The notes under the pieces: generated by a model | The model's database searches: none | Seen by the model: the letters and a program-made list of their open reading frames with translations, nothing else | What the model was told of the DNA's origin: nothing | Assembly: GCA_964543295.1 (NCBI GenBank) | Contig: CAZIXA010000002.1 | Span: 46,410 to 110,409, forward strand | Direction of reading: 5' to 3' | DNA: 64,000 nucleotides | Source of the DNA: an uncultured Clostridia bacterium | GTDB lineage: Bacteria; Aerophobota; Aerophobia; Aerophobales; AE-B3A | Program-made: the position numbers and the translations under genes | Shown here: piece by piece, positions 10,741-34,047 of the stretch | How positions within the stretch are numbered: the first letter of the stretch is position 1 | Layout: each line of letters opens with the position of its first letter

Positions 10741-10764
10741 AAAAGGGGACGTGATTATTTTTGG
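10741..10764 (+). repeat. REP element, forward, between oppC and the M16 peptidase gene.
   Basis: AAAAGGGGACGTGATTATTTTTGG. Confidence 0.7.
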
Positions 10765-22067: not shown

Positions 22068-23540
22068 ATGAATAATTACAGAATCAAAATTGATACAGAA
22101 AGACAAATTGGCAAAATAGATCTTAATATCTACGGTCACTTCATAGAACATCTAGGAAGATGTATTTATGGGGGTATTTATGAGGAGGACTCTTCTCTTT
22201 CTGATGAGAGAGGTTTCAGAAAAGATATATTGGAGGCAGCGAAAGCTATAAAATGTCCTCTTCTGAGATGGCCGGGAGGTAACTTTGCCTCCAATTATCA
22301 CTGGGAAGATGGGATTGGTCCTAAGGAGAAAAGGCCGGTGCGGTTTGATCTTGCCTGGAGTAAAGAGGAGACAAATAGATTTGGTACAGACGAGTTTATT
22401 GACTATTGTCGAGCAATAGGAGCTGAGCCTTACATTTGTGTTAACATAGGAACTGGCACTTTAGACGAAGCCATACACTGGCTGGAATACTGCAATGGCA
22501 GTGGGAATACTTATTATGCGAAATTAAGAGAAAAAAATGGCCATCTAGAACCTTACCGGGTTAAATACTGGGGGATAGGGAACGAGAACTATGGGGAATG
22601 GCAAGTAGGATACAGATCAGCAAAGGAGTATGCGAAGGTTTTACGAGAATATGCCAAGTTTATGAAAGTGGTTGATCCCAACATAAAAGTCGTGGCTGTG
22701 GGGGCTGATAATCCTGATTGGGATCTTGAAGTAACCAAAACCGCCGGAAAATATATAGACTATATTTCCAATCACCAGTATGTGGGCTCCGGCGACTATT
22801 ATGAAACAGTAGCTTCCATTTACTGGATTGAGAAGAGGCTAAAAATTCTAAAGAGTACGATAGAAATAGCTCAACCTTTAGCAAAAGAGGAAGAAAGAGT
22901 AAAAATCGCTTTTGATGAGTGGAATATTTGGTACAGAAGTACGCCAGAAAATGGCAATGAAGAAAATTATGCTCTGAAGGATGGACTATTCGCCGCTGGA
23001 GTGTTTATTATCTTGCATAAGCTATGTCGGAGCGTGACCCTGGCCAACCTGGCTCAACTGGTAAATGTACTGGGAGCTATCCACACGGAAAGGCATGGTC
23101 TTTACCTTACTTCAATTTATAGAGCTTTTGAGCTTTTTGTTAACCACACGGGAGAAATAGCACTAGATACTTTAGTTAATTCAGAAACTTACGATATTGT
23201 AGGGAAGGCGCATTTCGGTCGCAGAGGGTTCAAGCTAACCAATGTTCCCTATTTGGATGCCTCTGTAACCCTAAGCAGACACAAAGATAAGTTATATATT
23301 GTCACAGTTAATTATCATCGGGAGAAAGACATAGAGTGCCCTATATCCTTGGAAGGTTTTTCCTTTAAGGAAGAAGCAAAAGTCTATGAGCTTAACGGTC
23401 CCGATGTGATGGCGGTAAATGATTTTGATAACCCACAGAGAATCAGGATAAAAGATAAGACAATCAAAAAAGTCAGTCCTAGATTTAGTTATGTTTTTCC
23501 TGCCCATTCAGCCACGGTAATAGAATTCAAAGTGGGTTGA
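22068..23540 (+). CDS. Glycoside hydrolase family 51 alpha-L-arabinofuranosidase (AbfA-like).
   Basis: GH51 catalytic-region motifs (WGIGNENYG acid/base region, FDEWNIW nucleophile region). Length is 490 aa. Confidence 0.85.
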   Translation: MNNYRIKIDTERQIGKIDLNIYGHFIEHLGRCIYGGIYEEDSSLSDERGFRKDILEAAKAIKCPLLRWPGGNFASNYHWEDGIGPKEKRPVRFDLAWSKEETNRFGTDEFIDYCRAIGAEPYICVNIGTGTLDEAIHWLEYCNGSGNTYYAKLREKNGHLEPYRVKYWGIGNENYGEWQVGYRSAKEYAKVLREYAKFMKVVDPNIKVVAVGADNPDWDLEVTKTAGKYIDYISNHQYVGSGDYYETVASIYWIEKRLKILKSTIEIAQPLAKEEERVKIAFDEWNIWYRSTPENGNEENYALKDGLFAAGVFIILHKLCRSVTLANLAQLVNVLGAIHTERHGLYLTSIYRAFELFVNHTGEIALDTLVNSETYDIVGKAHFGRRGFKLTNVPYLDASVTLSRHKDKLYIVTVNYHREKDIECPISLEGFSFKEEAKVYELNGPDVMAVNDFDNPQRIRIKDKTIKKVSPRFSYVFPAHSATVIEFKVG

Positions 23541-23553
23541 CACTCCCCACAGA

Positions 23554-23577
23554 AAAAGGGGACGTGATTATTTTTTA
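23554..23577 (+). repeat. REP element (AAAAAGGGGACGTGATTATTTTTT), forward orientation.
   Basis: Exact 22-24 nt motif shared with 10741, 27733, 33652 (forward) and 28486, 33745 (reverse). Confidence 0.75.
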
Positions 23578-23743
23578 CCAGGGAAAAAATGGCTAAAATT
23601 CGTCTTTTGCTCTTAACCTTTTGGAGGGAACTTTCTGGCAGATTTTACTTCTTATGAGTCTATTTTAAATAAAAACAGTGGAGTGTCAAATAAAAAAAGT
23701 TGTTCGATGTTTAAATCCTGGATTTAAGTATTCTTGACATTTT

Positions 23744-24088
23744 CTATTCCAAACCCAGAATCACTTTTAATGTCACTCCCACCTTCAGGAGATTTTCTTC
23801 GCCAATATTTCCAAGCTTTCTTACCAACCTTTTTCTATCGATTACTCTTATCTGCTCACATAGGAGTACAGAATCTTTTGTCAATCCTCCAATGCCAGCA
23901 GCGATTTTAACGTGAGAAGGCAAAATAGGTTCTCTTATCTTAGTGATGAAAGTGATTATAATTGTACGAGGACTTTTCTCATTCGCTCTTTCTATCTGAA
24001 TAATCAGAGCCGGCCTTATACCTCACTGATCTGTGCCTACAACTGGACTTAAGTCCAGTAGAAACACATCTCCCCTTTTTATTTCCAC
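23744..24088 (-). pseudogene. MazF/PemK/EndoA-family mRNA-interferase toxin gene with an in-frame TGA (minus-strand codon 22, plus-strand 24023-24025) where the family has Gly (EQ-G-G).
   Basis: Translation is (GTG)MEIKRGDVFLLDLSPVVGTDQ*GIRPALIIQIERANEKSPRTIIITFITKIREPILPSHVKIAAGIGGLTKDSVLLCEQIRVIDRKRLVRKLGNIGEENLLKVGVTLKVILGLE. It is collinear with Bacillus EndoA. The GTG start overlaps the antitoxin 3' end. Confidence 0.75.
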
Positions 24089-24282
24089 TTTATCTTCCCT
24101 TTAGCCAGCATTTCCTCATAAACTACAAGCTCAGAGGGATAATCACTCGTATCTGATTCTATTAGACTGCTTGTTTCCTTTTCTATCTGCTCCTCTTTTG
24201 CTAGCCGATGGTAAGCTTCCCTTATCTGCTGGGGAGTCAAATATACAGTTACCGGAATCATTTTTTTCTTTTGTTCAAGCAT
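24079..24282 (-). CDS. Putative antitoxin of the MazE/EndoAI type (67 aa), cognate to the downstream MazF-like toxin.
   Basis: AGGAGG lies 8 nt upstream of ATG. The 3' end overlaps the toxin GTG start. It is a small protein with an acidic C-terminus. Confidence 0.6.
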   Translation of the reverse strand: MLEQKKKMIPVTVYLTPQQIREAYHRLAKEEQIEKETSSLIESDTSDYPSELVVYEEMLAKGKIKWK

Positions 24283-24336
24283 AACTTATTACCTCCTAAT
24301 TTTTAATGAGACTATCGGTATCTACAACATAAGTAG

Positions 24337-24360
24337 AAAATGGGGACGGGATTATTTTTT
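24337..24360 (+). repeat. Degenerate REP element (AAAATGGGGACGGGATTATTTTTT).
   Basis: 20 of 24 nt match the REP consensus. Together with the REP at 23554 it brackets the toxin-antitoxin cassette. Confidence 0.55.
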
Positions 24361-27732: not shown

Positions 27733-27758
27733 AAAAAAAGGGGACGTGATTAATTTTC
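27733..27758 (+). repeat. REP element, forward, preceded by a partial copy, 49 bp upstream of the RAYT gene.
   Basis: AAAAAAAGGGGACGTGATTAATTTTC, followed by TTGACT-N16-TAAGAT, a promoter-like sequence. Confidence 0.75.
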
Positions 27759-27806: not shown

Positions 27807-28496
27807 ATGCCTAGACAGGCTCGTGTTGTTATTGCCAACATACCCTATCACATAATTCACCGGGGGAATAACAGACAGGCCATATTTTTTGGTGAGAATG
27901 ATTATAAATTCTTTCTTGAAGCAATGAAAGAAGCCAAAGAAAAGCATCCTAATAAAGTCTATGCCTATGTGTTAATGAGCAATCATGTCCATCTTTTGTT
28001 AGAGCCAAAGAAAAGAGAGAATCTTCATCAATTCATAAAACTTCTTGCTGCAAAATATACCGGCTATGTTAATAGGATTTATCAGAGGACAGGAGTACTT
28101 TGGGAGGGCCGATTTAGAAGCTCTCCGGTGGGAGGCGAAAGATATTTTTTAGCCTGTCTGCGTTACATCGAGATGAATCCTTTGCGGGCAGGGATGGCTA
28201 AGGAGTTAGAAGAATACCCCTGGAGTAGTTACAGATTCCGAGCCCACGGAGAGAACAGCAAGATTTTAGATTACGATGTGTGGTATGAAGCATTGGCAGA
28301 GGAGGCATTAGTCAGGCAGAAAAGGTATAGAAAATTCTTCCAGGAGACAGTTCTGGAAAGTGAATGGAAGTTAATCAGAGAAATGGCCAACAGGGGAGGA
28401 ATAACAGGGAGTCAAAAATTCTCAGAAAAGATTGAGAAGATTTTGGGCAGGAAGATTATATTGAGACCAATAGGAAGACCTAAGATAAAAAAATAA
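27807..28496 (+). mobile_element. REP-associated tyrosine transposase (RAYT; IS200/IS605-like Y1 HUH transposase, TnpA_REP).
   Basis: The HUH motif SNHVHLL and the catalytic Tyr region (YTGYVNRIYQRTGVLWEGRF). The gene is flanked by REP copies in inverted orientation, at 27733 (forward) and 28486 (reverse). Confidence 0.8.
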
Positions 28497-28512
28497 TCAC
28501 GTCCCCTTTTTT
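28486..28512 (-). repeat. REP element in reverse orientation, overlapping the RAYT stop codon.
   Basis: AAAAAAATAATCACGTCCCCTTTTTTT is the reverse complement of the REP consensus. Confidence 0.75.
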
Positions 28513-33651: not shown

Positions 33652-33770
33652 GGAAAGGGGGACGTGATTATTTTTTGAGATATATTAAGTCGTCTATGAG
33701 GTAGCAGGCAAACTGCAAAGAAAATTGTGAGCCGGAATTTCGTAAAAAATAATCACGTCCCCTTTTCCTG
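33652..33770. repeat. REP doublet (BIME-like). A forward REP at 33652-33677 and a reverse REP at 33745-33770 are separated by about 67 bp.
   Basis: GAAAGGGGGACGTGATTATTTTTTG … AAAAAATAATCACGTCCCCTTTTCC. An inverted pair able to form a long hairpin. Confidence 0.7.
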
Positions 33771-33963: not shown

Positions 33964-34047
33964 TTGGGCTAAATGGATAGTTATGCTTTAGGGGTCAAAC
34001 CGCGGAAGTTAAAAAGGGGAAGGATTTGTCCCGCAGAGGAGAAAGCA

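What the first reader, a model, noticed from the sequence alone, without database searches (positions are those of the whole stretch)
23554..24360. An EndoA/MazF-type toxin-antitoxin cassette bracketed by REPs has a toxin interrupted by a single in-frame TGA
The minus strand encodes a 67-aa antitoxin (24079-24282) with an AGGAGG RBS 8 nt upstream. Its 3' end overlaps the GTG start of a MazF/PemK/EndoA-like toxin (23744-24088). Along its whole length the toxin matches the EndoA-type family pattern (…KRGDVF..DLSPVVG…RPALI…), but codon 22 is TGA exactly where the family has the second Gly of EQ-G-G. That is a single G-to-T change from GGA. Every other gene in the window uses TGA as a stop and none contains an internal one. 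The toxin is therefore either freshly inactivated, leaving an orphan antitoxin, or the sequence has an error at this base. Translational readthrough is a less likely alternative. The cassette lies between two forward REPs (23554 and 24337), the second one degenerate.
Basis: seen in the sequence. Interest (0 to 1): 0.6.

Follow-up and report, generated by a model that had tools for sequence, protein, structure and literature searches.

The report
Decayed MazF toxin-antitoxin cassette relic
This is a real but ordinary dead MazF-type toxin gene: it has a premature stop, has also lost a catalytic residue, and sits beside a still-open but damaged antitoxin gene in an uncultured Aerophobota bacterium.

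Summary
On the minus strand, a 67-aa antitoxin gene (24282-24079) overlaps by 10 nt a full-length PemK/MazF reading frame (24088-23744). Codon 22 of that frame (24025-24023) is TGA.

- Fifteen near-identical cassettes (about 96-98% nt) from other metagenomes all carry TCA (Ser) at codon 22. The change is therefore TCA>TGA at plus-strand base 24024, not GGA>TGA.
- The stop is not a lone fresh hit. The same allele carries four further unique missense changes at nearly invariant positions: E20D, D33E, P46T and T48I. T48 is the catalytic Thr of Bacillus MazF.
- The antitoxin carries two unique changes (M45T, L49P) in its conserved C-terminal tail.
- The window branch has 0 synonymous and 7 non-synonymous changes.

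An independent assembly of run SRR30905122 reproduces the region exactly. TGA ends 13 of 47 long ORFs, and no SECIS-like structure is present. Sequencing error and recoding are therefore unlikely.

The "REPs" are real 26-nt direct repeats of a lineage-specific intergenic motif (7 copies). The motif is not palindromic. It coincides with a breakpoint of synteny between strains.

Verdict: an ordinary pseudogenised type II TA module, of low interest.

The parts
24079..24282 (-). Antitoxin gene: 67 aa, intact ORF, ATG at 24282-24280, stop at 24081-24079. The allele carries unique M45T (24150-24148, ACG) and L49P (24138-24136, CCC).
   Evidence: for the ORF; only 15 close homologues, with M45 and L49 invariant in the other 12; the same C-terminal tail lies upstream of the toxin in 78 of 80 genome loci, with position 49 Leu in 76 of 77 and position 45 F/M/L/V/I in 76 of 77; no Pfam, NCBIfam or PDB family.
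24292..24297 (-). AGGAGG ribosome-binding site, 9 nt upstream of the antitoxin ATG.
   Evidence: Read directly.
23744..24088 (-). MazF/PemK-family toxin pseudogene: 114 codons including a premature stop, GTG start, 10-nt overlap with the antitoxin's 3' end.
   Evidence: for the translation. PF02452, 1.7e-24, full length; ungapped alignment of residues 2-113 to Bacillus MazF/EndoA structures 7bxy, 4me7 and 4mdx; 175 homologues.
24023..24025 (-). Premature stop, codon 22 TGA. The ancestral codon was TCA (Ser), so the changed base is 24024.
   Evidence: TCA in 15 related contigs; the column is A98/S18/G2/V1.
23945..24031 (-). Cluster of four allele-specific missense changes: E20D (24031-24029), D33E (23992-23990), P46T (23953-23951) and T48I (23947-23945). 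T48 is the catalytic Thr.
   Evidence: E 118/119, D 111/119 (+N 8), P 118/120, T 120/120. R25/T48 are catalytic and E20 is essential according to PMC7354611 and PMC8634880.
23724..24311 (-). Extent of the cassette shared with relatives that sit in other genomic contexts. The 5' boundary, TCATTAAAAATTAGGAGG, is the same in three different contexts. The 3' boundary is not defined, because the L006 contig ends at 23724.
24335..24360 (-). Upstream copy of the 26-nt intergenic motif (minus strand AAAAAATAATCCCGTCCCCATTTTCT). Synteny with other strains ends 0-4 nt after it.
23551..23576 (-). Downstream copy of the same motif, in direct orientation, starting 11 nt after the stop codon of the convergent arabinofuranosidase gene.
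   Evidence: only this copy forms a weak hairpin, and it does so with flanking sequence.

Best explanation
This is a chromosomal type II MazF/PemK toxin-antitoxin cassette in a Candidatus Aerophobota MAG, and it has decayed into a relic.

Shown:
- The toxin gene cannot make an active endoribonuclease. Translation ends after 21 residues at a TCA>TGA nonsense codon.
- Any rare readthrough product would still lack the catalytic Thr48 (T48I). It would also carry E20D, D33E and P46T at nearly invariant positions.
- The largest ORF downstream of the stop (59 aa, TTG at 23923) lacks both R25 and T48.
- The antitoxin ORF, its RBS and the overlapping start/stop arrangement are intact. However, its conserved C-terminal tail carries M45T and L49P.

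Inferred:
- That tail is the toxin-binding region, so selection on neutralisation has also relaxed.
- The toxin was probably disabled first. After that, nothing kept the antitoxin's binding tail conserved, and the pair is now drifting towards loss.
- The cassette sits in a strain-variable islet downstream of valS-TIGR00725.
- Most related copies in other samples have a different toxin lesion: the 3' end is replaced from codon 104. Toxin loss therefore seems recurrent in this lineage.
For: Family assignment:
- PemK_toxin HMM matches full length.
- Ungapped alignment to solved Bacillus MazF structures, so residue numbering transfers directly.
- R25 and T48 are catalytic and E20 is essential (PMC7354611 and PMC8634880).

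Allele comparison:
- 15 related contigs from 15 samples all have GAG/TCA/GAY/CCT/ACC at codons 20/22/33/46/48.
- Only the window and L087 have GAT/TGA/GAA/ACT/ATC.
- Column conservation in 120 homologues is given.

Substitution pattern:
- On the window branch the toxin has 0 synonymous and 5 non-synonymous changes. The sister branches have 10 and 4 (Fisher p=0.011).
- For the whole cassette the counts are 0/7 against 12/8 (p=0.008).
- Antitoxin M45 and L49 are invariant in close relatives, and L49 is conserved in 76 of 77 wider loci.

Not an artefact or recoding:
- An independent Logan assembly of SRR30905122 is 100% identical over 1,940 bp, including the TGA.
- Standard code: TGA ends 13 of 47 long ORFs, and ORFs tile 89% of the window.
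- No SECIS or Rfam hit, and the fold z-score is -0.36.
Against: - No read-level data could be inspected. The Logan contig probably derives from the same reads as the MAG, so it rules out an assembler artefact but not a systematic read error.
- A composite haplotype is also not excluded. It is unlikely, because all five toxin sites lie within 87 nt.
- No experiment shows that this family's intact members are toxic, or that the tail binds the toxin.
- The missense hits are concentrated in conserved columns (p about 0.02) and in codons 20-48 (p about 0.016) (both tests are post hoc). This fits selected multi-step attenuation better than purely neutral decay, so the order of events is unresolved.
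Confidence: 0.85

Rival explanations
1. The TGA is a sequencing or assembly error in an otherwise functional toxin gene.
For: The source is a MAG, and single-base consensus errors do occur. The allele was seen only in the source contig and in one Logan contig from one run.
Against: - A second, independently built assembly of run SRR30905122 is identical over 1,940 bp.
- The same allele carries six further unique non-synonymous changes, including loss of catalytic T48. Repairing one base would not restore function.
- There are no allele-specific synonymous changes, which random errors would also produce.
Confidence: 0.03
2. The UGA is decoded, either as selenocysteine, by programmed readthrough, or under a reassigned genetic code. 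The toxin would then be made and regulated at the level of recoding.
For: UGA is the leakiest stop codon in bacteria (general knowledge). The ancestral residue is Ser, which is chemically close to Sec and Cys.
Against: - TGA terminates 13 of 47 long ORFs, and standard-code ORFs cover 89% of the window.
- There is no Rfam or SECIS match.
- The 81 nt around and after the UGA fold no better than shuffles (z=-0.36).
- The sequence downstream of the codon is the same as in the TCA-carrying relatives, so no recoding signal co-evolved with the stop.
- The product would still carry T48I and E20D.
Confidence: 0.02
3. The toxin is dead, but the antitoxin is retained by selection as a functional orphan. 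It could act as an anti-addiction factor against incoming intact copies of the same cassette, or as a transcriptional regulator.
For: - The antitoxin ORF, its strong RBS and its N-terminal part are unchanged.
- Apparently intact cassettes circulate in related populations (L006, P0006-P0010).
- Orphan antitoxins are discussed as possible anti-addiction modules (PMC7354431).
Against: - Both allele-specific changes (M45T, L49P) fall on invariant hydrophobic residues of the conserved tail. A Pro replaces a Leu that is conserved across phyla.
- The branch has 0 synonymous and 2 non-synonymous changes, with no sign of purifying selection.
Confidence: 0.12
4. The flanking 26-nt repeats are recombination or insertion sites that mobilised the cassette, in the manner of an att site, an attC-like site or an IS target. 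The TA pair would be a mobile mini-cassette, not simply a gene pair lying between two intergenic motifs.
For: - Direct repeats bracket the cassette.
- Three strain configurations diverge 0-4 nt after the same motif copy.
- The motif also lies next to the cassette in L006 and in L001-L005, and it brackets another module in L088.
- The motif is lineage-specific and strictly intergenic.
Against: - The motif also lies between housekeeping genes, in both orientations.
- The right-hand junctions are not at the motif. L089 is not a clean motif-to-motif deletion of L088, and the L003/L004 cassette is inserted inside an RHH gene with no motif at its 5' side.
- No recombinase gene is adjacent in the window.
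- The motif has no hairpin or attC-like structure.
Confidence: 0.1

Closest known systems
Bacillus subtilis / B. cereus MazF (EndoA, YdcE; PDB 4MDX, 4ME7, 1NE8, 7BXY) with MazE (EndoAI)
   Same: - Same PemK/MazF family, with an ungapped alignment of residues 2-113 (E about 1e-27).
- Same positions for G18, E20, R25, P26 and T48.
- Antitoxin-first bicistronic operon.
   Different: - Here the toxin has a stop at codon 22 and Ile in place of catalytic Thr48.
- The residue-22 column is Ala/Ser in this subfamily, against Gly in EndoA.
- The antitoxin shows no detectable sequence relation to MazE/EndoAI.
MazF-family toxins paired with DUF2281-type antitoxins (Chloroflexota, Cyanobacteria and others; loci L007-L086)
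   Same: - Toxin 53-78% identical.
- The upstream antitoxin ends with the same tail..[F/M]xDYLxxLxxYExxLxxGxIxW, in 78 of 80 loci.
- The genes overlap in the same way.
   Different: - The Aerophobota antitoxin has a different N-terminal part (MIPVTVYLTPQQIREAYHRLAKEE...) in place of DUF2281.
- The window copy is degraded.
Degraded TA systems and orphan antitoxins reported in surveys of bacterial genomes (reviewed in PMC7354431)
   Same: The toxin is lost or broken while the antitoxin ORF persists. The module lies in a variable genomic region.
   Different: Nothing essential. This copy shows multiple hits on catalytic and binding residues on one short branch, and a second, independent toxin lesion is common in sister populations.
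REP/BIME repetitive extragenic palindromes
   Same: Short, multi-copy, strictly intergenic, found in both orientations, and associated with rearrangement junctions.
   Different: - No dyad symmetry or stable hairpin.
- Only about 24-26 nt are conserved: an A-run, TAATCACGTCCCC, then a T-run.
- No RAYT-type gene was seen in the window.

Membership tests
PemK/MazF toxin family (PF02452) | Profile match above the curated threshold over the whole domain | tested here: met
   86.6 bits against a cut-off of 23.1, profile 1-109 of 109, with the stop replaced. The part after the stop alone scores 61 bits.
PemK/MazF toxin family (PF02452) | Catalytic Arg (R25 in Bacillus numbering) | tested here: met
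   R25 is present. It lies downstream of the stop.
PemK/MazF toxin family (PF02452) | Catalytic Thr/Ser (T48 in Bacillus numbering) | tested here: not met
   Ile in the window, Thr in 120 of 120 homologues. T48 mutants lose activity (PMC7354611).
PemK/MazF toxin family (PF02452) | Uninterrupted reading frame giving a ~110-aa protein | tested here: not met
   TGA at codon 22. By sequence this is a pseudogene of the family, not a functional member.
Type II toxin-antitoxin module | Small antitoxin gene immediately upstream, co-oriented and overlapping or adjacent, conserved as a pair | tested here: met
   10-nt overlap. The same pairing is present in all related contigs that extend upstream of the toxin and in 78 of 80 wider loci.
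Type II toxin-antitoxin module | The antitoxin protein binds and neutralises the toxin; the toxin inhibits growth | not testable with these tools
   Inferred only, from family membership and the conserved C-terminal tail. The AF2 model of the antitoxin has low confidence (pLDDT 68.7).
REP (repetitive extragenic palindrome) | Multi-copy and extragenic | tested here: met
   7 copies against 0.33 expected, all in the 10% of the window that is intergenic.
REP (repetitive extragenic palindrome) | Imperfect palindrome able to form a stem-loop | tested here: not met
   none of the seven copies folds better than about 1.2 SD below shuffles, four fold no better than the shuffle mean, and there is no common stem.
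Selenocysteine / programmed UGA recoding | SECIS-like stem-loop just 3' of the UGA, or a reassigned UGA in the genome | tested here: not met

The most novel reading that the evidence does not exclude
The 26-nt A-run/TAATCACGTCCCC/T-run motif may be a lineage-specific recombination or insertion hot-spot. On this reading it delimits small exchangeable modules in Aerophobota genomes, such as this TA pair or an ATPase+RHH pair. The dead TA cassette would then be one captured cassette in a so far undescribed cassette-shuffling system.
Probability: 0.08. Interest if true: 0.55.

Novelty: new member of a known kind. Interest (0 to 1): 0.15.

Why it matters
It matters little beyond annotation. The locus should be annotated as a mazF-family pseudogene plus a possibly decaying antitoxin, not as a working TA system and not as a recoding event.

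As a small case study it shows three things:
- The same chromosomal TA cassette lost its toxin by at least two independent routes in related sediment populations.
- Active-site residues took several hits on one short branch.
- The antitoxin's binding tail started to erode afterwards.

This fits the common view that chromosomal TA modules are transient selfish passengers. The flanking motif is the only element that could lead somewhere new.

Tried and rejected
- The genome-contig scan with the toxin did not return the source genome or any copy above 78% identity. I could not look for intact copies elsewhere in the same genome.
- The metagenome-contig scan for the codon-22 neighbourhood with N at the variable bases returned only the contig already held (L001). 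A wider allele survey was therefore not possible that way. I used exact-protein look-ups instead.
- Rfam at gathering level for the whole window and at E<=10 locally gave only chance-level eukaryotic families.
- For the antitoxin, Pfam, NCBIfam and a PDB profile search gave nothing. AF2 on an 11-sequence alignment gave a low-confidence two-helix model, so I ran no fold search and make no RHH claim.
- I considered DGR-type or other targeted hypermutation of the toxin. The five changes are G>T, C>G, C>A, C>A and C>T on the coding strand, so they are not adenine-specific.
- I considered gene conversion from a divergent copy. The patch contains no synonymous differences, and the window holds no second copy.
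- I considered a MITE carrying the motif. Only the roughly 24-nt core is repeated.
- I considered foreign base composition. Cassette GC is 38.6% against 41.9 +/- 3.2% for the window, which is not unusual.

Full report
**1. What is in the sequence**

On the minus strand, an AGGAGG (24297-24292) lies 9 nt upstream of an ATG that opens a 67-codon ORF (24282-24079). Ten nucleotides before that ORF's stop, a GTG (24088) opens a 114-codon frame that runs to a TAG at 23746-23744. Codon 22 of this frame (24025-24023) is TGA. With the stop replaced, the frame matches Pfam PemK_toxin over the whole profile: 1.7e-24, 86.6 bits against a cut-off of 23.1. It also aligns without gaps, residues 2-113, to the solved Bacillus MazF/EndoA structures 7BXY, 4ME7, 4MDX and 1NE8.

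Minor corrections:
- The RBS spacer is 9 nt.
- In EndoA (E20-Q21-G22-G23) the stop aligns with the first Gly of the pair.
- The base that differs from relatives is plus-strand 24024, not 24023.

**2. Source and genetic code**

Exact-sequence look-ups place the window on a 186,326-bp NCBI contig. The neighbouring TIGR00725 protein belongs to a 90%-identity cluster whose named members are from Candidatus Aerophobetes/Aerophobota bacteria. The window has 41.9% GC. Standard-code ORFs of at least 100 aa cover 89% of it. Their stops are TAA 18, TAG 16 and TGA 13. TGA is therefore an ordinary stop here. Rfam finds nothing at gathering level in the window and nothing meaningful locally. The RNA around and after the UGA folds no better than shuffles (z=-0.36). 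Recoding is not supported.

**3. Is it an error?**

A Logan assembly of run SRR30905122 (L087, 1,940 bp) is 100% identical to window 24377-22438, including the TGA. This excludes an assembler artefact. It probably rests on the same reads, so it does not replace a read pile-up. The stronger argument is comparative and follows in section 4.

**4. Comparison with relatives**

The protein search found 175 homologues. The closest ones (90-94% aa) come from metagenomes. I fetched 15 contigs from 15 different samples that carry the same cassette at about 96-98% nucleotide identity (alignment; BLAST).

| Codon | 15 related contigs | Window and L087 |
|---|---|---|
| 20 | GAG | GAT |
| 22 | TCA | TGA |
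| 33 | GAC/GAT | GAA |
| 46 | CCT | ACT |
| 48 | ACC | ATC |

These codons are tabulated. The nonsense change is therefore TCA(Ser)>TGA, not GGA>TGA. It is accompanied by E20D, D33E, P46T and T48I.

Conservation of these columns in 120 homologues:
- Position 20: Glu in 118 of 119.
- Position 33: Asp in 111 and Asn in 8, of 119.
- Position 46: Pro in 118 of 120.
- Position 48: Thr in 120 of 120.
- Position 22: Ala 98, Ser 18, Gly 2, Val 1.

Because the alignment to Bacillus MazF is ungapped, the numbering transfers directly. R25 and T48 are the catalytic pair, and mutating either abolishes or severely reduces activity (PMC7354611). E20A nearly abolishes the activity of MazF-Da (PMC8634880). The toxin is therefore disabled several times over.

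**5. Pattern of substitution**

I assigned changes by parsimony among the window, the L003 group and L006 (plus the three-state codon 33).
- Window branch, toxin: 0 synonymous and 5 non-synonymous changes.
- Sister branches, toxin: 10 synonymous and 4 non-synonymous changes (Fisher p=0.011).
- Whole cassette: 0/7 against 12/8 (p=0.008).

The sister-branch replacements fall on variable columns. The window's missense changes all fall on the 39% of columns that are at least 93% conserved (p about 0.02). They also span only 29 of 114 codons (p about 0.016). Both tests are post hoc. Purifying selection has clearly been lifted on this branch. The concentration on active-site residues hints at selected, stepwise attenuation, as opposed to purely neutral decay after the stop. 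With five events this is only a hint.

**6. The antitoxin**

It has no Pfam, NCBIfam or PDB relative and only 15 close homologues. Its last ~28 residues are, however, the same tail found at the end of the gene upstream of the toxin in 78 of 80 genome loci from many phyla. Y48, Y55, E56, L59 and W66 are invariant. Position 49 is Leu in 76 of 77. Position 45 is F/M/L/V/I in 76 of 77. In those wider loci the N-terminal part is DUF2281. The Aerophobota version has a different N-terminal part.

The window allele alone has T45 and P49. I infer that this tail is the toxin-binding segment and that its erosion follows the loss of the toxin. An AF2 model was of low confidence (pLDDT 68.7) and I did not use it further. 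The ORF and RBS are intact, so a residual role as regulator or anti-addiction factor cannot be excluded (PMC7354431). The two substitutions argue against it.

**7. Context and the "REPs"**

The cassette is flanked by direct 26-nt repeats at 23551-23576 and 24335-24360, 92% identical. These belong to a family of 7 copies in the window, against 0.33 expected. All copies are intergenic, and both orientations occur. The family is absent from the 80 loci of other phyla but present in the related Aerophobota contigs. Only about 24 nt are conserved, and the motif forms no consistent hairpin. It is therefore not a REP in the strict sense.

The region downstream of valS-TIGR00725 differs between strains:
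- L089, from the same sequencing run and 99.1% identical across valS, continues into a 540-aa transglutaminase-like gene.
- L088 and L091 continue into an AAA_14/DUF4143 ATPase plus a 76-aa RHH-like gene, then another motif copy, then the 540-aa gene.
- L092-L095 continue into a Wzz/GNVR gene.

The window, L088/L091 and L089 all diverge 0-4 nt after the CCCCATTTTC end of the motif. The other junctions are not at motif copies, so clean site-specific exchange is not shown.

In 14 of the 15 related contigs, the toxin's last 11 codons are replaced from codon 104, giving a 106-aa allele ending KVEGE. This is followed by a fragment of an HTH-protein ORF, the motif and the 540-aa gene. In L001 a DDE transposase gene abuts the antitoxin start. 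The cassette is thus one passenger in a small junkyard-like islet, and its toxin has been damaged independently at least twice.

**8. Verdict**

This is a genuine, already well-decayed MazF-family TA relic. It is a new member of a known kind and an example of a well-known fate of chromosomal TA modules. It is not a sequencing error and not recoding. It is also not the single fresh G>T hit that was proposed. Interest is low. The only lead with some potential is the lineage-specific intergenic motif at the strain breakpoint.

Noticed in passing
window 10745-10761, 23558-23574, 24342-24358, 27740-27756, 28490-28506, 33658-33674, 33746-33762: A lineage-specific, non-palindromic intergenic motif of about 24-26 nt (AAAAAATAATCACGTCCCCTTTTT). 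It has 7 copies, in both orientations, and is absent from 80 loci of other phyla. Three copies lie 11-18 nt after stop codons, pointing back into the gene. Four lie 21-211 nt upstream of gene starts. Its function is unknown.
   Followed up: partly
window 33652-33683 / 33737-33768: Two motif copies form a 32-nt inverted pair (88% complementary, 53 nt between the arms) in the 327-nt gap before the gene at 33973.
   Followed up: no
window 24332-24336; L088 3754-3780; L089 2850-2875; L091 1144-1170: Synteny among co-occurring Aerophobota strains breaks 0-4 nt after the motif downstream of valS-TIGR00725. What follows is alternatively the TA cassette, an AAA_14/DUF4143 ATPase plus a 76-aa RHH-like gene, a 540-aa transglutaminase-like gene, or Wzz/GNVR.
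   Followed up: partly
L001-L005, L099-L107 (toxin codon 104 onward; corresponds to window 23776): In 14 related contigs from different samples, the toxin's C-terminal 11 residues are replaced (106-aa allele ending KVEGE). This is followed by a 28-aa fragment resembling an HTH N-terminus (MITMKKWAAIRQLKEQGFAKK...). It is a second, widespread toxin lesion.
   Followed up: partly
L001 1956-3782: A 608-aa DDE-transposase-like gene ends 15 nt before the antitoxin and replaces the cassette's normal 5' end, including the ATG.
   Followed up: no
P0150 (72 aa, JGI): This protein reads as a toxin fragment (LPCHVKIAAGIGGLTKDSVLLCEQIR) fused to the antitoxin at the shared EQIR/QQIR motif. It may be a recombination or an assembly chimera.
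   Followed up: no
window 23662-23689 (-) and 23537-23546 / 23680-23689: A near-consensus sigma-70-like promoter (TTGACA-16-TAAAAT, 11 of 12) lies just downstream of the toxin stop and points towards the 3' end of the arabinofuranosidase gene. Its -35 hexamer is part of a perfect 10-nt inverted repeat with the end of that gene.
   Followed up: no
window 24079-24282 versus L007-L086 upstream ORFs: The antitoxin family is modular. A conserved C-terminal tail is joined to DUF2281 in most phyla, but to an unrelated N-terminal segment with no family assignment in the Aerophobota copies.
   Followed up: partly
L088 3581-3694 (between window 24434 and 24416): A 113-nt insertion relative to the window lies between TIGR00725 and the motif in two JGI strains (L088 and L091).
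   Followed up: no
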